From the IMG/VR virus record IMGVR_UViG_3300035510_000286, positions 72,133 through 136,132 of that record: a stretch of DNA of 64,000 nt. One strand, 5' to 3'. Below the pieces are notes generated by a model. The model was given only the letters and a program-made list of their open reading frames with translations. It ran no database searches and had not been told where the DNA came from. The translations under genes and the position numbers were made by a program. The DNA comes from a virus. Taxonomy: Duplodnaviria; Caudoviricetes. How positions within the stretch are numbered: position 1 is the first letter of the stretch; each line of letters begins with the position of its first letter. Of this stretch, positions 8,075-64,000 are shown one piece after another.

Positions 8075-8149
8075 GGAGGTGTAGTGTAATGGTAGCACAG
8101 AGGGCTCTAACCCCTCGGGTCTTGGTTCGATTCTGAAGCGCCTCTGCCA
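8075..8149 (+). tRNA. amber suppressor tRNA (anticodon CTA), probably Gln-accepting
   Basis: gaggg-ctctaac-ccctc; discriminator G and loop ending AC as in the phage tRNA-Gln(TTG); encoded CCA. Confidence 0.9.
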
Positions 8150-27576: not shown

Positions 27577-29940
27577 ATGGCGAATATTACAGAAGTAGAT
27601 ATTTTAGATGAATCGAAAGAATGTTTTTTAACCTATAGTTCTGAGGTACTTACAGATCGTGCGGTGCCAGCCGCAGAAGACGGTCTCCTTTCCGCACAGC
27701 GTAAAATCTTGTGGACAATGGAAGATTATTTGAAAATGGATTCTAAAAGCAAGACTAAAAAGTGTAATGCTCTAGTCGGATCTACCCTAGCGACCTCGTA
27801 TTTTCACGGCGATCAAGCTTGTTATGGCGTGCTTTGTAAGATGTCCCAAGAATTTCTTATGAGGTATCCGCTTATTACAGGTCAAGGCTCTCTTGGTACT
27901 CAAGAATCTAATGATATGAAAGCTAGCTCGAGATATACAGAAGCTAAACCTTCTATTTACGCAGACTTGATGATGGGTGATTATAAGAAGAATGTAGTAC
28001 CAACAAAAGAAACTTACAATGGCGAGTTTATGGAGCCTATTGTTTTGCCTTCTCTTTTCCCTAATGCAATTTGTAATGGTAGACAAGCTATTGGCGTCGC
28101 ATTATCTCATTCTAGTGTGCCTCATAATCTAACTGAAGCTTGTAACGCTATTACCGCTTATATTGAGGATAAAATCTCGAATGTAGATGAATTAATGCAG
28201 TATATGAAGGGACCTGACTTCCCGCTTGGCGGTACTGTCATCAATAGTTCTGTGATTCGTGAAGCTTTTAGAACTGGTAAGTCTAAAGTTTCTCTAAAAG
28301 TTCGAGGAAATTATGAAGTAAATAATGATGAAATTATTTTTACTACAATTCCTTATAGAACTTATCGTGATAAAATTAAAGAACAAATCAATAAAAACGT
28401 CGAGGAATTAGAAAAGTATTTTGATGATTTCAGTGATGAATCAAATGTAGGTAAGAATAGATTAGTTTTTAAGATAAAAAGCGGAGTTAATGCGGCAAAG
28501 GCTTTGAATGTGCTTTTTGCTAAGACCGATTTACAGACTACTGTATCTTATAACATGAATTACATTGTTAATGGTACACCTAAGCTTTGTTCTATGTTGG
28601 ATCTAGTAGATGCTTATGTTAAACACCAAACAAATGTCCTACTCGCTGCTACTAAGTTTGATAAGGAAAAAGCCGAAGCAAGAGCGCATATCTTAAGAGG
28701 TCTACTTGTAGCATTAGATAAAATTAATGAAGTTATTGAACTTATTAAAAAAGCAGAAGGAAAGAAAGACGCTAATGCTAAGTTAGTAGATTTTCTCGGC
28801 ATTGATGAAATTCAAGCTAATGCCATTCTTGATATGAAACTTGCTAAGCTAACTCGTATTGATAAGCAAGAGCTAGTAGATGAATTAAAGCAGAAGGAAG
28901 AGATAATTGAGGAATGTGTGCGGATTTGCGAGGATGAAAGCTACAGAAATCAAGTCCTTATTCAGAAAGTAACGAGCCTTAAAGAGAAATATGGCGACGA
29001 GCGCCGCACAAAGCTGGCAGACATCCAAGAAGAAAAGCCTGAAAAAGCTAAACCTGAAATTGTGCCAGAGGATTGTGTTGTAAATATCTCTAAGTCTGGA
29101 TATATTAAGCGTATTCCTAGTAAGTCTTATAAGACTTCTCGCAGAAATACTGTAGGAGCTAAGAATGAAGATGTCATGGTATATACGGCTAAGACAAATA
29201 CGGTAGATACGCTTCTTATCTTTTCTTCTGCTGGCAAAATGTATAGACTTCCTGTCGTTGATATTCCTGAAGCTACTAATGCGACCAAGGGTCTATTACT
29301 CACGAGTTTAGTCGACTTCGAAGCTGGCGAATCCGCAATGGCTTATACTGTGTTAAATGACAATAGTACACCTAATTATGTATTCTTCGGAACTGCGGAT
29401 GGTACAGTTAAGAAAGCTAAGTTTGAAGAGTTTACTTCTACTAAGCACTCTAAAGGTGTTAAGGCTCTAAAACTGCGAGAGGGTAATTTCCTCACCTCTG
29501 TTGATTTTATGTGTGATGAAGATATTCTTCTTATTTCTAAGAGAGGTATGATTATTCGATTCGCTACAGAAGATATGCCACTTTCTTCGAGAACCGCGAT
29601 GGGCGTTAAGGGTATTAAGCTTAATGATGGCGATGAACTGGTTGCTTGCGTATCCATTAGAAAGCCTTATCTTGCGGTTGTAACGGCCGATGGCCACGGA
29701 AAGCTTGTTGATATGGCGGAGTTTAATACACAAGGCAGAGGTGGTAAGGGAGTAAAATGTACTAATGGAGTTGACATTGGCGGAGTAGCTCAAGTTGACT
29801 TAACTAGCGATATCCTCATTACCGGCGACCGCAGTTCTGTACGGGTTTCCGCCCAAGAGTTCCCGCAGTATAGCAAAATGATGCTTGGAAATTTGGTTAT
29901 TAAGAACAATGATACAGTGACTTCTATTACCGAAATTTAA
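27577..29940 (+). CDS. gyrA: type II topoisomerase subunit A (GyrA/ParC-like)
   Basis: DGL..QRKIL, YFHGD, ASSRYTE catalytic Tyr, C-terminal pinwheel repeats (GRGGKGV). Confidence 0.92.
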   Translation: MANITEVDILDESKECFLTYSSEVLTDRAVPAAEDGLLSAQRKILWTMEDYLKMDSKSKTKKCNALVGSTLATSYFHGDQACYGVLCKMSQEFLMRYPLITGQGSLGTQESNDMKASSRYTEAKPSIYADLMMGDYKKNVVPTKETYNGEFMEPIVLPSLFPNAICNGRQAIGVALSHSSVPHNLTEACNAITAYIEDKISNVDELMQYMKGPDFPLGGTVINSSVIREAFRTGKSKVSLKVRGNYEVNNDEIIFTTIPYRTYRDKIKEQINKNVEELEKYFDDFSDESNVGKNRLVFKIKSGVNAAKALNVLFAKTDLQTTVSYNMNYIVNGTPKLCSMLDLVDAYVKHQTNVLLAATKFDKEKAEARAHILRGLLVALDKINEVIELIKKAEGKKDANAKLVDFLGIDEIQANAILDMKLAKLTRIDKQELVDELKQKEEIIEECVRICEDESYRNQVLIQKVTSLKEKYGDERRTKLADIQEEKPEKAKPEIVPEDCVVNISKSGYIKRIPSKSYKTSRRNTVGAKNEDVMVYTAKTNTVDTLLIFSSAGKMYRLPVVDIPEATNATKGLLLTSLVDFEAGESAMAYTVLNDNSTPNYVFFGTADGTVKKAKFEEFTSTKHSKGVKALKLREGNFLTSVDFMCDEDILLISKRGMIIRFATEDMPLSSRTAMGVKGIKLNDGDELVACVSIRKPYLAVVTADGHGKLVDMAEFNTQGRGGKGVKCTNGVDIGGVAQVDLTSDILITGDRSSVRVSAQEFPQYSKMMLGNLVIKNNDTVTSITEI

Positions 29941-29949
29941 GGAGGTATT

Positions 29950-31047
29950 ATGTTCGATAAAGAAAAGATTGCAGAATTATATCCAGGCGCAGAAGATCTT
30001 ATGCTCGAGGCGCAGCTCATTTGGAAGCTGCCTTCGGGCAAAGAAGATATGTTTGAAAAAGTCTGTGAATCTGGAGAATACTTTCTTACAGAAAAGATTG
30101 ACGGTGCTTTATATCAATTTGTAAAAGTTGAAAATGGAGCATATCTATTCGGTAGAACTATTAGCAAAACTACTGGGTTACTTACTGAAAAACTAGATAA
30201 TGTACCGCATATCAGAGAAGCGCTTTCTGTGTTACCTTCTTCTACTGTTCTGATTGGTGAAATCTACTATCCGGGCGGAACATCCAAGAATGTAACTAGT
30301 ATTATGGGTTGTTTGCCGAAGAAAGCAATAGAAAGACAGAAGGATAATCCTATTCATTATTATGTCCATGATATTATTTTTTGTAATGGAGAAGATTTAA
30401 CTGGAATTGGGGCAGAAGATAGATATAACATTTTAGCTTCTTTGTGGAAAGAATATAACCTTGATTCTTATGATTTCTTGCGGTTGGCCGAGAAAAAGGA
30501 TGAAGATTTTCAAGCTATTCTCGCTAATATTCTAGCTTCTGGTGGAGAAGGTATTGTTCTTAAAAAGAGGGATGCGGTATATACTGCTGGAAGGCGCCCA
30601 GCTTGGAGTAGTATTAAAGTGAAAACTGTAGATACTATTGATTTAGTCTGTGTGGGGCTATGTAAACCCACTAAAGAATATACCGGCAAAGAATTAGAAA
30701 CATGGCCTTATTGGGCTAGGGGTGAAGAGTTAATTAACGAAAATAAATATGGAGAAGAAGGATGGGAACCGATTACTAAGCCATATTATTTAGGCGTAAT
30801 TACCTCTATGGAGATTGGCGCATATCATAATGGTAGTCTAGTTAAAATTGGTACCGTATCTTCTGGTTTTACAGATGATGATCGCGCCCAAATGACTTTT
30901 TATCCTGAGAGTTTTATCAATCATGTATTTAACTTTTCTTGTATGAGTATTGATAAGAAGGAACATACTCTGCGGCATCCGGTGTATGTAGGTCCTAGAC
31001 CAGATAAGAATCCGCAAGAGTGTATCCTGGAAGAAGTGTTTAGTTGA
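29950..31047 (+). CDS. ATP-dependent DNA ligase
   Basis: EKIDG, IGEIY, EGIVLK, IKVK, LRHP. Confidence 0.88.
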   Translation: MFDKEKIAELYPGAEDLMLEAQLIWKLPSGKEDMFEKVCESGEYFLTEKIDGALYQFVKVENGAYLFGRTISKTTGLLTEKLDNVPHIREALSVLPSSTVLIGEIYYPGGTSKNVTSIMGCLPKKAIERQKDNPIHYYVHDIIFCNGEDLTGIGAEDRYNILASLWKEYNLDSYDFLRLAEKKDEDFQAILANILASGGEGIVLKKRDAVYTAGRRPAWSSIKVKTVDTIDLVCVGLCKPTKEYTGKELETWPYWARGEELINENKYGEEGWEPITKPYYLGVITSMEIGAYHNGSLVKIGTVSSGFTDDDRAQMTFYPESFINHVFNFSCMSIDKKEHTLRHPVYVGPRPDKNPQECILEEVFS

Positions 31048-51253: not shown

Positions 51254-54200
51254 ATGTATATTGTGAAACGTAGCGGTGAAACCGTTGAGTTTGATAAAAA
51301 TAAGATTATCAATGCTATTAACAAAGCATTTGTAGAAGTTGATGGCACTTTATATGAAGATGAAACAGCACAAGAAATCGCTAATGATATTGAGAAAGAA
51401 ATCAACAAGTCTCCTGCTAATGTAACTGTTGAAATGATTCAAGACTGGGTCGAAGATGAATTAATGCAGTCTGAACGCAGAGACGTAGCTAGAGCTTATA
51501 TTAGATTTAGATATAAGAAGGAAGTAGCTAGGGATGTAAAAGCGGATTTCTTTGATGCTATTGGCGAAAAGCTTTCTGCTTCTAATATCCAAAACCAAAA
51601 TGCGAACGTAGATGAAGCTTCTTTCGGAGGCCGTATCGGTGAAGCTTCTAGCGTTATGACTAAACAATATGCTTTAGATTATATTGTATCTAATATGGCA
51701 AAGCAGAATCATTTGAACAATGAAATTTATATTCATGATTTAGATAGCTACGCAGTCGGGATGCACAACTGCTGTGCACGAGAGACAAAATTCATCACTA
51801 AAGATTTCGGAGTTCATTCTTTTTCTGACCATGAAGATGGTGATAAAATAGTAGTGTTAAGCCATGATGGTAGCTTTAATAACGCTACAGTTAAAAAATT
51901 TGGAGTTCAAAAGTTGAACAAGGTTACTTTTTCTCTTGCTGGACAAAGATTTGTTACAGAGCGTTTTACAGCAAACCATAGATGGATATTAGAAAATGGG
52001 GCAGAAACAACTCATTTAAAAATAGGAGATAAACTTTATAAGGCGCCGATTAGTATTAGAAGGTTTGACTGGGATATGGCGACAGAAAAAGAACAATATT
52101 ATTGGTGTTTAGGATTTGTCCTTGGTGATGGTACAGAGGCTTGTAGATGGTCGCACGGAAAGAAGAATGAAGATATTAAATTCGTTCGTATGAGACTTTG
52201 TGGCGAAAAAATTAAATACGAACAAAGGTTTATAGGGTTGAAACATTCTACGAAGGAAATGCCTAACGGCGACCTATATCTAACATTCAGTAGCACGATT
52301 GGATTTAGGAAAATCTTCCCCGACCTTAATCTTATGACAAGAAACGAAAAACTAGCTTTATTTGATGGATTATATTGTGCAGATGGACAGCATACAGGGA
52401 GCAGTAAAACGATTACTACTACAAATGAACAAATAGCTAGCTTTATAGAAGATGAAGCCCCTGCGCTGGGGTATTTTATTCTTGGAATTAAAGACAAATC
52501 TGGAGAAAAGACAAATTATACCACAAGAGGTTTCACTAAACAATATACCTTTATTGGAGATACAAATAAATACTATTGGACGGTTGTAAATATTGAAGAA
52601 GATAAGGAAGAAGAGGTATGGTGTTTGCAAGTTGAAAATACTCATAGCTTCGTTCTCCCAAATGGCATTACTACTGGAAACTGCTTAAGTGTACCTTTTG
52701 ATGATTTACTGGCTAATGGCTTTGATACTAGACAGACTGATGTGCGGCCGGCCAATAGCGTTAATACAGCTTTTCAGCTTGTCGCGGTGATTTTCCAGCT
52801 TCAGAGCTTACAAGAATTTGGTGGAGTTAGCGCTACACATCTTGATTGGACGATGGTACCATACGTCCGTAAAAGTTTTTATAAACATTATATAGATGGA
52901 TTAAAATACATTGATAGCTTTGAGGCCGAACTCAAATTGGCTATTTCTAGTGATGAAGCTAAAGATATTAGTATCGAAGATACTAAGATTTATAAGCATA
53001 AAATGTCTTATAATTATGCTATGGATATGACAGTTAAAGAAGTTCATCAGGCAGTAGAAGGAATGTTCCATAACCTTAATACTTTGCAGAGTAGAAGCGG
53101 GAATCAACTCCCCTTTACTTCTATCAATTTTGGTACTTGTACTCTTCCTGAAGGCCGTATGATTATTAAATCTCTATTAGAAACCTCTATTGAAGGAGTA
53201 GGTAAACTACATAAAACACCTATCTTCCCTTGTTCTATCTTTCAGTGTATGAAAGGTGTCAATAGAGAACCTGGAGATCCTAATTATGATTTGTTCCAAC
53301 TGGCATTGAAGTCTACTTCTCAAAGGCTTTATCCTAATTATGCAAATGTCGATTGGAGCGGCAATGAAGGGTATGACCGAGATGACCCGCGGACTTATTT
53401 CTCGACCATGGGTAAGCGTAAACTACAGCTCATGTAAAATCTTTTGAACCTCGCTCGAGGGTGTCTACTTATAAAGTAGGCTAACGGTTAGGACCTATGA
53501 ATGTTAAATAGGCTGAGACCGTGGGAAGTTTAATATATTTGATTTAAATTTGGCTCTTTTATATAATATAGCTATATTAAAGTAAAGGAGTAAATAAATA
53601 TGTTTATCTATAAAATTACTAATAAATTAAATGGCAAAGTATATATTGGTTAGACAATAGGCAGCATAGAGGCTAGATGGCATCGTCATCAATAGGATGC
53701 TTTAAATGGTAGATTAGATACTCATTTTGCCAGAGCCATTAGAAAGTATGGGCCTGAAAATTTTGATGTTGAAGAATGGGATAATAAAAATACCTAGGAA
53801 GAATTGACATTAGCAGAGCAATATTGGATTAAGTATTTTAATAGTGTAAAAGAAGGATATAATGAGACTGATGCAACATCAAAATGTGGTGGCAATACTT
53901 ATAAGAGTAAGACCGAAGAAGAACTAAGGCAAATCGGGGAAAAAATTAGAGAAACGAAATTAGGGGGTAAAAATCCTAATTCAACTGCCGTTAAATGCAA
54001 AAATATAAAGACGGAAGAAGAGTATTATTTTAATTCTCAAGCCGAAATGCAAAAATTCTTTAATGAGACTAATCATCTTTTTATATCTAGGCGTTGTCTT
54101 GGAGAAATCCAAAAACCTTATAAAGACGAATGGCTAATTGCCTATGCTGATAAAGAATACGGAGAAGTTCAAAGGCAAGACCGTGAAAGAAAAGTGTCTA

Positions 54201-56832: not shown

Positions 56833-57368
56833 TGGTTTTTCAGAAGGTTTCAAGATTTACTGAGGTAGATATGCCGCGCCGGTCAACTGCGGAATCCGCG
56901 GGCTATGATTTCTTCGCAGCAGAGGATACTATTATTCCTTCTTTTGTTTCTCAATTTGATACTTTAAGAAAATATACGCATGACCAAGGAAAGCCTTATG
57001 AGCCTCTTACTCTTGATGAAATCGCAGAATTTACTAAAAATTCTGACACTCGTTTTACTCTTGTTTCTACTGGAGTGAAATGTCAAATGCCTAGTAATGT
57101 GCATCTCAGGCTGTTTTCCCGCAGTTCAGTGCCTTTGAAGAATTGGCTAGTGCTTGCAAACGGAGTCGGGATCGTGGATGCAGACTACTTCGGTAATAAC
57201 GATAATGAGGGCGAAGTGTTCTTTCAATTCATAAACCTCGGTCCTAATCCTGTTCTCATCAAGAAAGGCGATAAAATCGGACAAGGTATCTTTGAAAAAT
57301 ATCTAGTTACAGAAACAGATGAAGCAACAGAAAAGAGAACTGGAGGATTCGGCTCTAGTGGGAAGTAA
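56832..57368 (+). CDS. dut: trimeric dUTPase
   Basis: SAGYD, RSS, GIVDADY, IGQG, RTGGFGSSG. Confidence 0.92.
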   Translation: MVFQKVSRFTEVDMPRRSTAESAGYDFFAAEDTIIPSFVSQFDTLRKYTHDQGKPYEPLTLDEIAEFTKNSDTRFTLVSTGVKCQMPSNVHLRLFSRSSVPLKNWLVLANGVGIVDADYFGNNDNEGEVFFQFINLGPNPVLIKKGDKIGQGIFEKYLVTETDEATEKRTGGFGSSGK

Positions 57369-57852
57369 TTTATTATTAGCTTTAGATCAAAGCACTAAGA
57401 TAACTGGATACGCAGTATTTAATGGTTAGGAACTAATCGCCCATGGTCACGTAACTTTTAGTGGAAGCGATTATATAAATAGAATTGTTTAGTTGCGGCA
57501 GTGGCTTAATGGCATTATCGACTCTGTAGATGGAAGCATCTAGGTAGCTTTAGAAGATATTTAGCTTTAGGATGCTAAAGGGACTGGAGTTACTGGGCTT
57601 CCTACTTATAAAAAACTTGCGCACGTACAAGGGGCTTTAATGACTTTACTAGAAGAAAAAGGAATTTCTTATTAGTTAGTTTTAGCTTCCTCATGGAAAA
57701 GTACGTGTGGAGTTAAGGGTAAAAGACGAGAAGAATAGAAGAAAAATGCTTAGTTGTATGTTAAAAATATATATGGCTTTGACCCTACTTCTGATGAAGC
57801 TGATGCGATTTGTTTAGGACTTCATGTATTAAAGCACGATTGGTCAGAATAA
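57358..57852 (+). CDS. RuvC-like Holliday junction resolvase (8 TAG read as Gln; absent from the ORF track)
   Basis: LALDQSTKITGYA, ALEDI, WKS..G, DEADAICLG. Confidence 0.85.
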
Positions 57853-57912
57853 ATTAATCTAATCCCTACTTTTTTCATAAATAATGAAACCACGCTAAAA
57901 GAAGGGAAAAGA

Positions 57913-58371
57913 ATGTTAGAATTTATAGTCAAGTATTGGCTTTAGTTTCTTTTTGGCATAGTTGCGGCGGGCGCTACAACAGCCGCTAGATTTTTTTATA
58001 AAATGTACAAAGAAGAAAAAGCTAGATAGACTGCCGACGGAAGGGCGGCCATTTCTAAGGAAATAACAGAAGCTATTAGTACAGCAGTTCACGAGGTACG
58101 TTTTAACTCTAATAGTGAAGATGAAAAACTTTAGGGAGAAATTAATAGCATTAAGGCATAGTTAAGTATACTAAGACACGCTATTTTAGTTTTATACAAA
58201 AAGCCTTTTAAAGAAGCGTGCGAAAACGCCTTGAAAAAAGACCATGAAATTACTTTAATGGAATATTAGGAACTAGCACACGAGCATGACGTTTACAAGT
58301 CCTTGGATGGAAATTCTGACGGAGATACTTTGTACCATCTAGTCGAGCAAAAATATCAGAACAGTCTATAA
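57913..58371 (+). CDS. TM + coiled-coil membrane protein, holin-like family (several TAG read as Gln)
   Basis: MLEFIVKYWLQFLFG...YKSLDGN. Confidence 0.65.
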
Positions 58372-60815: not shown

Positions 60816-60887
60816 ACAACTTCCTTTCCTTAAATTGAAAGTAACCTTTCAAATATATTAAAAAATTAGTTATATGACTTAAATAGT

Positions 60888-61511
60888 TTAGTCCTCGTAG
60901 CTTAATTCTATCTCGAGAATTTCTGCTATAGACTGTGTAGAATAAATCTTAGTTTTAAGCTGCTGCATCTTATGATAGTAAGGATATACAAAACTAGAGA
61001 TTGCTGCGCTTAAACGAGATAATTCTTCATAAGACCAGGTTGTATTCTCTTCGTGGATAGCGTGCCACTCAAGGATAGGCGTTTCCGCGCCCGCATCAAC
61101 CATAGCCTTATACTGTGATAAATTCAAGCTGATTTCAGATTGGTCATTAGCTGTAACCCCATAGCTTTTACCATCCGAGAAAACTAGTGCCTATGAATCT
61201 AGGAATTCCGCGAATTTCTCTCTATTTTCCTTTTGTTTCTCAGCTTGAATATCTCCAATGCTTTTACGTAAAATACATTCTCCATTGTCATACGCATAAA
61301 CATTAGGAATAAAATCTCCAATAGGCTCGTTTATTTCGTAGACAGAAACCGAGTCCAAAGAATAAAAAGTATCACAATCTGAACCAATAACGCCTGTTGC
61401 TTCTTCTTTCGCACAACTAATTAAAAGTGCGGGTTCAGTCTGCCATTTAACCCATCTAGGTTCAGAAATCATATCTACGATTAAATTATTTTTATTTACA
61501 TATATAAACAT
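60888..61511 (-). CDS. tail-fibre-associated protein, DUF4376-like (TAG at 61191-61193 read as Gln)
   Basis: Two ORF-track fragments in frame; LEWHA...FVYPY..QQ..K..I. Confidence 0.65.
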
Positions 61512-62695
61512 AAGTCTACCCCTTTGAATAAAGATTTGAAATAATTATCCATTCGCTAGACTAAATAAAAAGTATTACCTTTACTTATATGCGCTCGCCA
61601 ACCTAAGTAGGACTATACAATATTCTCAGTAGTAGTTTCACCATTTAACCAAAGTTTCTACTAACGTCGCATCTTTCTGCGCTATTTGGCTATTTTCTCT
61701 TTGAAAGGAAGTTGTATAAGACCATTGTCTTTCGTTAGCCAAAAATTCCACTTTAAATACTTAAAAGGCTGCTGGCGTTTTCCGGGTTTAATCTACATTA
61801 TAGTAGTTTTCTTACGATTCAATTTAAGACCCTAGCTAACGAGCTTTTGCTCGATCTTAAGCACGCATTCCCGCAGATATTCTTTATCATTCCCAAAGAA
61901 ATAAATATCATCCATATATCTGCCGTAGTATTTAAGATGTAGCTGCTCCTTAGCATAATGGTCTACTTCATTAAGTGCTAATAATGCTAAAAGCTAAGAA
62001 GCCTAACTTCCTAGTCCTAGACTTGTAGGTTTATATTCGTAATACGTCTTACCAGGTTTAAAGTATTGCACTTTTACAGGTCTATAGCCATATTGTCCTT
62101 TAACTATATAATACTATTTATCTGGCTAAGGCGTATTATCTGTTGTGGGTGAATAACAAAAAGTGTCGATAATATATTCTACAAGCTCGCTTATCTGCGG
62201 CTATTGAACATATTTCCGCACTACCGATTTAAGATATTCATGGTCTATTGAATCGAAATACTTTTTAATATCTAGCCTAACCGCATAAAAATTCTCACCA
62301 AGACCAAAGTCCTAGTGAGCTTTCTATAAATGTATTCTAACTCGCTTTAAGGCAAAGTCAATTCCTTTGTCTTTCAATGTAGCGCAATTATCATATATCA
62401 ATTTAGGAGTAAGCTATGGTAAAAGAAATGTTTCACAAAGAGCATTTTGAAGCATCCTATCATAAATATAACAGGCTCTTATATCTCGCTTCTTACCTCT
62501 TTCAACTATTGAAAAACAATTAAATACCATCTACTAGTATTCATTATTCTTCAATTCTTCTTCTAAACGTAAGACGTTATTTAGTCTATTCTCTTCAAAA
62601 TTGATAGTACTACCTTTCCATCTTACGTTTCTGCAAACTTTGTATGAAGCATCATATAGAGCTTCACGACTACAACTAATCTAGGAGTCCTACAC
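61496..62695 (-). CDS. DGR reverse transcriptase, 399 aa (about 19 TAG read as Gln; absent from the ORF track)
   Basis: RBS aaggagg + GTG; ERGKKRDI, DRMLQ, LDIKKYFDSIDH, GLGS(Q)AS(Q)LLA, YGRYMDD. Confidence 0.92.
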
Positions 62696-62974
62696 GGGCT
62701 ATCCTCCTTGAAAAAATTTTATCAGCTAGTTCTAGTTAGACTTCTCAATGTGGAACTAACATCTAGCTTCATAATTTGCCCTTACGGGACTGGATAAACC
62801 TTCCTTAGATGAAATACACTTTTTTAATAATATTTTTCTCTTTTATAACACAATAATATAACATAATAACATTAGATTACTACTCACCTAGATAGACGCT
62901 TCTGCATCTTTCTTCTAATCGTTGTTAGTCACGGCCTAAGTCGGCCGTGCCTAACGACAAGGCTTTCATCTAAT

Positions 62975-63100
62975 CCGGCGCGAGGTAGTTGCCATTGTTG
63001 TAGTTGTTGTTGTTCGCAGCACCACTAGAGTTGACATTGCAAACATTGTTCGAGTTGGAGCTGCCGTAATATCGCGAACGAAGCCACCAAATGCCGGCAG
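62975..63100 (-). repeat. DGR template repeat (TR)
   Basis: 126-nt copy of VR rich in AAC/AAT codons; differs from VR only at adenines. Confidence 0.95.
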
Positions 63101-63103
63101 GAA

Positions 63104-63550
63104 TTAACAAGGTTTACCCCTGAAAGAGCGTTGATGCTCTTCGATGCTTAACTTGCAAGCCCTCGCTAAATCTGCAAGATACCAATAAGAGTTGCGTTTC
63201 TTCTCGCTTTGAACAACAAAAATACACAAATCTAATTCTCTTAAAATAGAATCGCAATAACCTATTGCCGCATCAAAAAATTTATTTACTTTATCTAAAT
63301 CTTCCTTAGTCCTAACTTCTATCTCGCTAGCTGCAAAACAATTACCATGGACTCGTTTTGCACTATCTAAAATACTAGCCCCAAAAGCTGAGTATAGATA
63401 TTGACTGCCCAGTGCACCAGGACTATTGTACTTTCCATTCGCCTTCTACTTAGAAGGTCTAGTCAATATTAATACTTGTAAAACTAACTTTCTAGCATCA
63501 TTAAGATAAGCAACTTTAGATAAATGTCTATCAACTGTCTTTACCGACAT
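63104..63550 (-). CDS. avd: DGR accessory protein, Avd-like (one TAG read as Gln)
   Basis: 148 aa, helical, MSV start, located between target gene and TR; call rests mainly on position. Confidence 0.7.
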
Positions 63551-63579
63551 ATTTATCCTCCTTCGATATAATCAATTTA

Positions 63580-63667
63580 AGAAAATGAGAGGAAAAATAT
63601 TATCTTCCTTTAGAAAAGGATTGAAGTAAATAAAAAAAGAACTGGAAGTTTTTTCCTCTCATTTTCT
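63580..63667. repeat. 18-bp perfect inverted repeat in the avd leader
   Basis: agaaaatgagaggaaaaa ... tttttcctctcattttct. Confidence 0.8.
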
Positions 63668-63781
63668 GTTAGTATTATACCAAATTATTTTCAATATATC
63701 AAGTAAAGTTCTCTCACTACTATATAAAAATTTAATTAATTCATCTAAACTTTTTTGTCCAGATTTTGTTAAAAAGAACTT

Positions 63782-64000
63782 TTAACCAATGCAGAAAGCC
63801 GGCGCGAGGTAGGAGCCAGCGCTGTAGCCGTCGCCGTACGCAGCACCACTAGAGAGGACACCGCAAACAAAGCCCGAGTAGGAGCTGCCGTAATATCGCG
63901 AACGAAGCCACCAAAGGCCGGCAGAGCTGCTACTACCTCCACTACTAGTTCCAATATATTTAATTCTGCTAGAATTATCAGAATATTTAGAATAATTAAA
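63782..64000 (-). CDS. C-terminus of the DGR target protein (DUF6273/CLec-like), truncated by window
   Basis: ...WWLRSRYYGSSYSGFVCGVLSSGAAYGDGYSAGSYLAPAFCIG*. Confidence 0.88.
   Translation of the reverse strand, partial: FNYSKYSDNSSRIKYIGTSSGGSSSSAGLWWLRSRYYGSSYSGFVCGVLSSGAAYGDGYSAGSYLAPAFCIG
63799..63924 (-). repeat. DGR variable repeat (VR)
   Basis: 21 mismatches to TR, all at TR adenines. Confidence 0.95.

What the first reader, a model, noticed from the sequence alone, without database searches (positions are those of the whole stretch)
61496..64000. Complete DGR whose reverse transcriptase is locked behind about 19 amber codons
Seen: VR (63799-63924) and TR (62975-63100) align over 126 nt with 21 differences, all at TR adenines. 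An Avd-like gene and an RT with YMDD follow. The RT has about 19 in-frame TAGs, including codon 2 and both Gln of the G(L)GSQxSQ motif, so it is invisible to the standard-code ORF track. Known: DGRs mutagenise VR by adenine-specific retrohoming. Inference: diversification of the target can occur only when the phage suppressor tRNA is active, which would make the code switch an on/off gate for hypermutation. DGRs in recoded genomes may be missed by default pipelines.
Basis: partly seen in the sequence, partly recalled or inferred. Interest (0 to 1): 0.9.

Follow-up and report, generated by a model that had tools for sequence, protein, structure and literature searches.

The report
Active phage DGR written in amber-recoded code
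A large gut phage that reads the stop codon TAG as glutamine carries a complete, demonstrably active diversity-generating retroelement whose reverse transcriptase has 19 in-frame TAGs. This follows from the element sitting among the phage's recoded late genes, and such elements have been reported before, so it is not a special lock on hypermutation.

Summary
On the minus strand lie a target-gene 3' end with VR (63799-63924), an Avd-like gene (63104-63550), TR (62975-63100), a structured spacer and a 399-codon RT (61496-62695) with 19 in-frame TAGs. TR and VR differ at 21 of 126 positions, all at TR adenines.

New here: the window ends at the end of a 136,132-bp contig whose two ends overlap by 264 bp. 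The two copies of VR differ at 14 sites, all TR adenines, so two VR alleles coexist in one assembly and the DGR is active.

Relatives with 94% identical RT keep all 19 TAGs and have their own co-varying TR/VR. Relatives at about 60% identity have 0-8 TAGs and equally intact DGRs.

RT is TAG-rich: 66% of its Gln codons are TAG, against 37% in the other late genes (38% with RT included) and 9% in early genes. It is not unique. Other late ORFs have equal density or more TAGs (66, 34, 24).

RT therefore depends on the phage tRNA-CUA like every virion gene. A DGR-specific gate is not supported. Amber-interrupted DGR RTs in recoded gut phages are already published (Lou et al. 2023; PMC12386605). First-stage readers of this scan noted the same idea on two other genomes.

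The parts
63782..64000 (-). 3' end (72 codons) of the DGR target gene, cut by the contig end. The whole gene (436 aa, 4 TAG) is at genome 46-1356 (-) = L001:46-1356:-
   Evidence: Contig ends overlap by 264 bp. Pfam DUF6273 scores 40.1 bits (cut-off 23.5) on residues 280-435, plus a marginal Phage_fiber_2 match at the N-terminus. DUF6273 is a published CLec-like DGR target domain (PMC11792537, PMC10743442).
63799..63924 (-). Variable repeat (VR), with the GC-rich CCTCGCGCCGG at its 3' end
   Evidence: 126 nt with 21 differences from TR, all at TR adenines. A second allele at genome 63-188 differs from this copy at 14 sites, all TR adenines.
63725..63760 (-). Phage promoter-like motif GGACAAAA-N22-TTTTTA upstream of avd
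   Evidence: Exact match; 9 matches in the window against 2.0 expected. GGACA...TTATATA is conserved upstream of avd in relatives at about 60% identity.
63674..63702 (-). Sigma-70-like promoter TTGATA-17-TATAAT with TG
   Evidence: 11 of 12 match. This is a consensus match only.
63580..63667 (-). 18-bp perfect inverted repeat (hairpin) in the avd leader
   Evidence: RNA fold -29.4 kcal/mol, z -2.9. Present in L005 and absent from the 60% clade.
63104..63550 (-). Avd-like accessory gene, 148 aa, 1 TAG (codon 35)
   Evidence: Conserved between target and TR in relatives. AlphaFold2 gives a four-helix bundle at pLDDT 86. Best structural matches are 2rld_C and 2gsc_D; 2rld is titled S23 ribosomal protein family, which from memory is the Avd family PF05635. 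Both score Z 14.8, rmsd 2.5 A. BPP-1 Avd 8ub7_C scores Z 11.7, rmsd 2.5 A, 108 of 111 aligned. No sequence-HMM hit.
62975..63100 (-). Template repeat (TR), rich in AAC codons
   Evidence: It matches only the two copies of the single VR in the 136-kb genome.
62696..62974 (-). TR-RT spacer, with a strong hairpin at 62919-62960
   Evidence: Spacer fold z -3.8; hairpin -23.6 kcal/mol, z -5.3. Hairpins of different sequence occur at the same place in relatives.
61496..62695 (-). DGR reverse transcriptase, 399 aa, GTG start, 19 in-frame TAG
   Evidence: RVT_1 6.4e-16; phrog_1423 3.9e-78. Best solved relative is the DGR ribonucleoprotein RT, entry 8ub7, at 1.4e-15. TAGs at Q231 and Q234 align with invariant Gln.
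8075..8149 (+). tRNA with anticodon CUA (amber suppressor), G73 discriminator, encoded CCA
   Evidence: ARAGORN; Rfam tRNA 38.1 bits; sequence. It is the only suppressor tRNA in the genome.

Best explanation
This is a canonical, complete and currently active phage diversity-generating retroelement. Its parts are a tail-fibre-like target with a DUF6273/CLec-type VR, an Avd-like four-helix-bundle protein, TR, a structured spacer RNA and an RT. It sits near the distal end of the minus-strand late (virion) gene block of a gut phage of about 135.9 kb, probably circular, that decodes TAG as glutamine with its own tRNA-CUA.

Shown: the anatomy; adenine-only TR-to-VR differences; two coexisting VR alleles; TAG at invariant Gln positions; TAG use concentrated in late genes.

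Inferred: avd-TR-RT is transcribed from a phage-type promoter. Avd (1 TAG), the target (4 TAG) and RT (19 TAG) can be translated only once the suppressor tRNA is working, as for the portal, tape-measure and fibre genes. RT plus Avd then copy TR RNA into adenine-mutagenised cDNA that replaces VR in replicating genomes.

The heavy TAG load of RT is a lineage-specific extreme of genome-wide late-gene recoding. It is not a dedicated switch for hypermutation.
For: DGR anatomy and adenine specificity.

Activity:
- The 264-bp contig-end overlap carries two VR alleles that differ at 14 sites, all TR adenines.
- L005/L006 (RT 94% identical, also 19 TAG) have their own TR. Its non-A changes, including a 6-nt deletion, are mirrored in their VR.
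- VR-encoded residues differ in nearly every relative.

RT identity.

TAG = Gln: Q231 and Q234 are invariant Gln in 36 homologues, and 7 further TAG sites are Gln/TAG in at least some of the 60% clade.

Recoding pattern:
- Coding density rises from 0.70 to 0.91 when TAG is read as sense.
- TAG is 38% of Gln codons in the late block and 9% in the early block.
- TAG-free plus-strand genes are GyrA, GyrB, DnaE and NrdD. Minus-strand genes include portal, tape measure and tail proteins.

RT is not unique: late ORFs carry 66, 34 and 24 TAGs, and densities reach 5.7, 4.8 and 3.9 against 4.76 per 100 codons for RT.

Relatives with 0-8 TAGs in RT keep A-only TR/VR pairs.

Prior reports: 10.1101/2023.08.07.552389; PMC12386605.
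Against: RT is in the upper tail. Its TAG share of Gln codons is 0.66 against 0.37 for the other late genes (Fisher p 0.003), and it ranks third of all ORFs of 100 aa or more. RT exceeds its same-strand neighbours in 25 of 29 related loci, which I read as about 3 of 7 independent lineages. Some selection for TAG in RT therefore cannot be excluded.

A near-consensus sigma-70 promoter upstream of avd could allow early transcription. In that case translation would be the effective control.

Expression timing, tRNA charging with Gln and retrohoming were not measured. Avd membership rests on fold and position, with no sequence-profile hit. The CLec fold of the target was not confirmed because the AlphaFold2 model failed (pLDDT 38).
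Confidence: 0.85

Rival explanations
1. Dedicated gate. The extreme TAG load of RT, starting at codon 2, has been selected so that mutagenic retrohoming switches on sharply only after the code change. This would make RT output far more sensitive to suppression efficiency than other genes.
For: RT has the third-highest TAG density of ORFs of 100 aa or more, and 66% of its Gln codons are TAG. TAGs sit at codons 2 and 5 behind a strong Shine-Dalgarno sequence. All 19 TAGs are conserved in the 94% relative. RT exceeds its flanks in 25 of 29 loci. A sigma-70-like promoter might uncouple transcription from timing.
Against: Virion ORFs that must be made in quantity carry 66, 34 and 24 TAGs. Read-through late in infection must therefore be near-complete, and 19 TAGs would then attenuate little. 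One late ORF and one plus-strand ORF have higher density than RT. The 2379-aa ORF has a TAG at codon 4. Orthologous RTs carry 0-8 TAGs with intact A-only TR/VR, including L031 with none. The 29 loci are not independent, and one lineage (L007-L011) shows the reverse.
Confidence: 0.1
2. Dead element. The TAGs are real stops, RT is a pseudogene, and the TR/VR differences are relics of past activity.
For: Under table 11 the gene is shattered into fragments. No expression data exist.
Against: There is no TAA or TGA in 399 codons; from the base composition I estimate the chance at about 1e-9. TAGs fall on invariant Gln. The same 19 TAGs and an open frame persist in relatives at 93.5% nucleotide identity. 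Two VR alleles differing only at TR adenines coexist in one assembly. TR changes are copied into VR in the sister lineage. The genome has a tRNA-CUA, and coding density rises from 0.70 to 0.91 under TAG=Q.
Confidence: 0.02
3. The 264-bp end duplication is a true direct terminal repeat of the virion DNA, so each genome carries two VR copies that are diversified independently. On this reading it is not a circular assembly of a mixed population.
For: The two ends share 264 bp, which is longer than usual assembler k-mer overlaps. The source database classes the record as linear.
Against: The repeat would cut the target gene, leaving a 72-codon fragment at one end. The mismatches alone explain why exact-repeat detection failed. 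The gene order is continuous across the junction.
Confidence: 0.1

Closest known systems
Bordetella phage BPP-1 DGR (mtd-avd-TR-brt)
   Same: Same order: target with 3' VR, accessory gene, TR, spacer, RT. Adenine-only TR-to-VR changes, AAC-rich TR and a GC-rich element at the VR 3' end. RT's best solved relative is the DGR RT of entry 8ub7. The Avd-like model aligns to that entry's chain C over 108 of 111 residues. That 8ub7 is the BPP-1 complex is from memory.
   Different: RT is only distantly related (E 1.4e-15 in two pieces). The target domain is DUF6273, not Mtd. The Avd-like protein has no sequence-profile match. All three proteins are written with TAG=Gln. The host phage is a 136-kb phage, not a 42-kb temperate podovirus (the BPP-1 description is from memory).
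DGRs of TAG-recoded persistent gut phages I57_PsAC1, I79_PsAC1 and I123_PsAC1 (Lou et al., bioRxiv 10.1101/2023.08.07.552389)
   Same: Code-15 lytic gut phages of about 100 kb. The DGR RT has multiple in-frame TAGs and lies next to a recoded tail-protein target, and VR changed over time.
   Different: Those genomes are described there as Bacteroides-associated and about 99.6 kb. I did not compare sequences. The paper states no gating hypothesis for the DGR.
[quoted passage not shown]
   Same: Seven RT genes are reported with amber suppression, with the remark that this hampers DGR detection. They have the GxxxSQ motif and CLec-type tail-fibre targets. The cassettes lie in the virion gene block. 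Two members have avd and a 399-aa RT.
   Different: The present phage has a tape-measure gene, so it is not a crAss-like podovirus. No nucleotide match to any phage record was found.
Faecalibacterium and related Clostridia phage DGRs with DUF6273 targets (PMC11792537; 'tentaclins', PMC10743442)
   Same: The target domain is DUF6273 with VR at its C-terminal end, and it is CLec-like by their modelling. RT is about 27-33% identical to RTs of Faecalibacterium and Roseburia phages and of phage nd12.
   Different: Those phages are small (30-60 kb). Neither passage I read mentions stop-codon recoding, and one search found no mention in PMC10743442.
Late-gene stop-codon recoding model (Borges et al., bioRxiv 10.1101/2021.08.26.457843)
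   Same: [quoted passage not shown]
   Different: That paper does not mention DGRs or reverse transcriptases (0 occurrences).

Membership tests
Diversity-generating retroelement (DGR) | Reverse transcriptase of the DGR type with the [I/L]GxxxSQ and YxDD motifs | tested here: met
   GLGSQASQ and YMDD are present. RVT_1 6.4e-16; phrog_1423 3.9e-78. The best PDB sequence match is the DGR RT of entry 8ub7, with the SQ motif aligned.
Diversity-generating retroelement (DGR) | TR/VR pair whose differences are confined to TR adenines | tested here: met
   21 of 21 differences in 126 nt are at TR adenines. The second VR allele has 14 of 14.
Diversity-generating retroelement (DGR) | VR at the 3' end of a target gene encoding a ligand-binding (CLec-type) domain | tested here: inconclusive
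   VR ends 5 codons before the stop of a 436-aa protein. Pfam DUF6273 scores 40.1 bits, above its cut-off, and others describe DUF6273 as CLec-like (PMC10743442, PMC11792537). My own fold model failed (pLDDT 38) and no PDB profile hit was found.
Diversity-generating retroelement (DGR) | Accessory protein Avd (basic four-helix bundle) next to TR | tested here: inconclusive
   The model is a four-helix bundle at pLDDT 86. Top matches are 2rld and 2gsc at Z 14.8; 8ub7 chain C scores Z 11.7. Helical bundles give such Z values easily. No Pfam, NCBIfam, PHROG or PDB sequence hit. Position and sequence are conserved in relatives.
Diversity-generating retroelement (DGR) | Evidence of ongoing mutagenic homing (VR polymorphism restricted to TR-A sites; TR changes copied to VR) | tested here: met
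   Two VR alleles occur in one assembly. TR non-A changes and a 6-nt indel are mirrored in VR of L005/L006. VR diversity is seen across relatives.
Diversity-generating retroelement (DGR) | Target-recognition elements at the VR 3' end (GC-rich IMH and a downstream hairpin/cruciform) | tested here: inconclusive
   The GC-rich CCTCGCGCCGG is shared by VR and TR, and the two diverge right after it. Downstream of VR there is only a weak AT-rich hairpin, no better than shuffled sequence.
TAG-to-Gln recoded phage (genetic code 15 with late-gene bias) | Phage-encoded tRNA with anticodon CUA | tested here: met
   8075-8149 (+) by ARAGORN and Rfam. It has a G73 discriminator.
TAG-to-Gln recoded phage (genetic code 15 with late-gene bias) | In-frame TAG at conserved Gln positions of homologues | tested here: met
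   RT Q231 and Q234 are invariant Gln. Positions 55, 124, 194, 338 and 380 are mostly Gln/TAG in the 60% clade, and 288 and 346 are Gln/TAG in a minority.
TAG-to-Gln recoded phage (genetic code 15 with late-gene bias) | TAG concentrated in structural/late genes and avoided in replication genes | tested here: met
   1.80 against 0.28 TAG per 100 codons.
TAG-to-Gln recoded phage (genetic code 15 with late-gene bias) | TAG actually translated as Gln in infected cells | not testable with these tools
   This needs proteomics or an in vivo assay.

The most novel reading that the evidence does not exclude
The exceptional TAG load of this RT is adaptive. It comprises 19 TAGs, from codon 2 onward, conserved in the sister lineage, and denser than in neighbouring genes in several related lineages. 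By making RT yield depend on the nineteenth power of read-through efficiency, it would act as an ultrasensitive translational timer. That timer would confine error-prone reverse transcription to the late phase, when many genome copies are available. It would keep the RT silent in any cell where the suppressor tRNA is absent or blocked.
Probability: 0.1. Interest if true: 0.6.

Novelty: new member of a known kind. Interest (0 to 1): 0.3.

Why it matters
It is a clean, fully resolved example of a working hypermutation cassette written in an alternative genetic code, with built-in evidence of activity: two VR alleles in one assembly.

It has two practical lessons:
- DGR surveys run with the standard code will miss the RT. 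Even code-aware gene calls can truncate it; a database copy starts at Met56.
- VR heterogeneity can prevent the two ends of a circular phage contig from matching. A probably complete genome was therefore filed as linear and 79% complete.

The biological idea that hypermutation is gated by the code switch is a direct corollary of the published late-gene recoding model. It gains no specific support here.

Tried and rejected
- Nucleotide search of the cassette against 50,697 phage records found no match.
- Sequence profiles for the Avd-like protein (Pfam, NCBIfam, PHROGs, PDB) gave nothing. A word-based homologue search found only its near-identical copy.
- Foldseek E-values for the Avd-like model were weak, 0.06 or worse. 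Only the VIA re-alignment put the 2rld/2gsc proteins (S23 family per the 2rld title) on top.
- AlphaFold2 of the target's last 175 residues with 11 sequences failed (pLDDT 38). A PDB profile search gave nothing useful.
- Rfam found no known RNA family in 61000-64000.
- RNAalifold on a MAFFT alignment of the TR-proximal spacer gave only 2 pairs because the sequences do not align. Single-sequence folds were used instead.
- The search for further VRs in the genome found none.
- No release-factor gene was found and no second suppressor tRNA.
- A phage genome of similar size (phAss-1, PMC10607447) was considered as a relative. That paper reports no DGR and I did not establish any relationship.
- The DNA hairpin downstream of VR is no better than shuffled sequence.
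Full report
**1. What is there**

Every gene of the finding lies on the minus strand. Read with TAG as a sense codon, the order along that strand is as follows:
- the 3' end of a target gene (63782-64000), with VR at 63799-63924;
- a 218-nt gap;
- an Avd-like ORF at 63104-63550 (148 aa, 1 TAG);
- TR at 62975-63100;
- a 279-nt spacer;
- a 399-codon reverse transcriptase at 61496-62695.

Under table 11 the RT region yields only fragments of 49 aa or less. TR and VR align without gaps over 126 nt. They have 21 mismatches, every one at a TR adenine, and 21 of the 32 TR adenines are changed. I estimate the chance of that pattern at about 3e-13. RT holds exactly 19 in-frame TAGs, at codons 2, 5, 54, 55, 94, 124, 128, 165, 190, 194, 231, 234, 288, 301, 338, 345, 346, 361 and 380, and it contains YMDD. 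Its GTG start follows AAGGAGGA with a 6-nt spacer, and no other start codon is available before the conserved N-terminal region.

**2. The window's edge hides the most informative fact**

The window is the last 64 kb of a single 136,132-bp contig. The first 264 bases of that contig repeat its last 264 bases, except at 14 positions. All 14 lie in VR and all correspond to TR adenines. I estimate the chance of that at about 1e-13.

The contig is thus most simply a circular or circularly assembled genome of about 135,868 bp. The assembler walked once around it and met a second VR allele. One copy differs from TR at 21 sites and the other at 14, over the 126-nt core. The whole target gene is at genome 46-1356 (436 aa, 4 TAG). 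No other VR exists in the genome.

**3. Identity of the parts**

- *RT.* It matches RVT_1 (6.4e-16) and PHROG 1423 'reverse transcriptase' (3.9e-78). Its best solved relative is the RT of the DGR ribonucleoprotein entry 8ub7, with the SQ motif aligned.
- *Target.* It carries DUF6273 above Pfam's cut-off on residues 280-435, plus a marginal tail-fibre repeat at its N-terminus. Others have described DUF6273 as a CLec-like DGR target domain with VR at its C-terminal end. My own fold model of it failed.
- *Avd-like protein.* It has no sequence-profile match. It is conserved at the same position in relatives. It is predicted with confidence as a four-helix bundle. It aligns best to 2rld and 2gsc (Z 14.8) and well to chain C of the DGR complex 8ub7 (Z 11.7, 108 of 111 residues). 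2rld is titled S23 ribosomal protein family, which from memory is the family Avd belongs to. Because helical bundles score highly in general, I rate Avd membership as likely but not proven.
- *Spacer.* The TR-RT spacer folds better than shuffled sequence (z -3.8). It begins with a strong hairpin at 62919-62960 (z -5.3). Relatives have hairpins of different sequence at the same place. That is the expected behaviour of the RNA element that DGR RTs use next to TR; this last point is inference.

**4. The genome is recoded, and the DGR sits in the recoded half**

Coding density rises from 0.70 to 0.91 when TAG is read as sense. A tRNA with anticodon CUA and a G73 discriminator lies at 8075-8149. 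It is the only suppressor tRNA, and the phage has no release-factor gene.

Plus-strand genes such as GyrA, GyrB, DnaE and NrdD contain no TAG. Minus-strand genes include portal, tape measure and tail proteins. TAG accounts for 38% of Gln codons in the minus-strand block and 9% in the plus-strand block. Through the circular junction, the DGR is continuous with the tail-fibre end of the minus-strand block. RT overlaps the next gene downstream by 16 nt.

An exact copy of a phage-specific motif, GGACAAAA-N22-TTTTTA, lies upstream of avd. The motif is over-represented in the window (9 matches against 2.0 expected). A GGACA...TTATATA version is conserved upstream of avd in relatives at about 60% identity. 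A near-consensus sigma-70-type promoter follows it.

**5. Is RT specially locked?**

RT is TAG-rich, with 19 of 29 Gln codons and 4.76 TAG per 100 codons. The other late genes have 290 of 775 Gln codons as TAG and 1.73 per 100 codons (Fisher p 0.003). RT ranks third among all ORFs of 100 aa or more.

It is not alone, however. ORFs at genome 31442-32179 (5.7 per 100) and 129424-129984 (4.8) exceed it, and the ORF at 28991-30391 (3.9) is close behind. The large virion ORFs carry 66, 34 and 24 TAGs. The 2379-aa ORF has a TAG at codon 4 behind a Shine-Dalgarno sequence. If a 66-TAG structural protein is made in useful amounts, read-through late in infection must be nearly complete. Nineteen TAGs would then cost little. 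Before the suppressor acts, all of these genes are equally silent.

**6. Relatives**

Eighty related loci were fetched.
- Two of them (L005, L006; 93.5% nucleotide and 94% protein identity) keep all 19 TAGs. They have their own TR, whose non-adenine changes, including a 6-nt deletion, are mirrored in their VR. Homing has therefore continued since the two lineages split, with this same TAG-laden RT.
- A large clade at about 60% identity has 0-8 TAGs in RT. One member, L031, has none in RT and none in its neighbours.
- All relatives examined have A-only TR/VR pairs, and nearly every one has different VR-encoded residues. The DGR family therefore works with any TAG load.

RT exceeds its same-strand neighbours in TAG share in 25 of 29 loci. 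These collapse to about seven lineages: three higher, one lower and three equal. That is a hint, not a demonstration.

Of the 19 TAG sites:
- two are invariant Gln in all homologues;
- five more are mostly Gln or TAG in the 60% clade, and two are so in a minority of its members;
- eight align with K, E, R, D, I or M there, and codons 2 and 5 lie upstream of the aligned region.

Several of those replacements would be one base from TAG; I infer this from the residues and did not read the codons. I take the pattern to suggest gradual accumulation at tolerant sites.

**7. What is known**

Lou et al. describe three TAG-recoded persistent gut phages. [quoted passage not shown] A 2025 paper on Zeta crAss-like phages reports amber suppression in seven DGR RT genes and notes that this makes DGRs hard to find. 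[quoted passage not shown] First-stage readers of this scan recorded the same idea on two other genomes. I found no paper that states the DGR-gating hypothesis explicitly. It is a direct corollary of the published model.

**8. Verdict**

This is a new member of a known kind. The most useful additions are the direct evidence of activity and two practical warnings:
- RT calls are truncated or missed. The database copy P0003 starts at Met56.
- VR heterogeneity defeats terminal-repeat detection. This record is classed as linear and 79% complete.

Noticed in passing
window 63737-64000 and genome 1-264 (L001:1-264): The contig ends overlap by 264 bp but differ at 14 VR positions. Exact-repeat tests for circularity therefore fail, and the record is classed as linear and 79% complete. 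It is probably a complete genome of about 135.9 kb.
   Followed up: yes
window 63580-63667 (-): An insert of about 130 nt in the avd leader has an 18-bp perfect inverted repeat and a near-consensus sigma-70 promoter. It is present in the 94% relative, with a 10-nt loop deletion. It is absent from the 60% clade, where avd follows the GGACA motif directly. Its function is unknown.
   Followed up: partly
window 3818, 22532, 60859-60894 (-), 63725-63760 (-) and others: The motif GGACAAAA-N22-TTTTTA occurs 9 times with up to 2 mismatches, against 2.0 expected. It precedes avd here and, in diverged form, in related phages. It is a candidate phage-specific promoter class.
   Followed up: partly
window 62925-63110 (-): A 61-aa ORF over TR gives a weak DUF6273 hit simply because TR is a copy of VR. 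It is likely to be mis-annotated as a gene.
   Followed up: yes
L002:8274-10322 (genome 26274-28322, -): An HNH/homing-endonuclease ORF (8 TAG) lies directly beside a 330-aa tape-measure-like fragment. A second endonuclease ORF is at genome 34309-35346. Mobile endonucleases seem to interrupt the late block as well.
   Followed up: no
window 51254-53437 (+): The NrdD ORF shows a weak intein-splicing domain match (28.7 bits, below the cut-off of 35.8) between its ATP-cone and catalytic parts.
   Followed up: no
window 60888-61511 (-): A 207-aa ORF overlaps the RT stop by 16 nt. It has weak DUF4376 and phrog_3811 matches and may be co-translated with RT. Its role is unknown.
   Followed up: no
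protein P0003 (database copy of RT, 99% identical): The public gene call starts at Met56, just after the TAG-TAG pair. It loses the conserved N-terminal 55 residues and the GTG start.
   Followed up: partly
window 57292-58371 (+): Two plus-strand ORFs (186 and 152 aa) next to the late block have very high TAG density (4.8 and 3.3 per 100 codons) and no family match. They could be lysis genes, but this was not tested.
   Followed up: no
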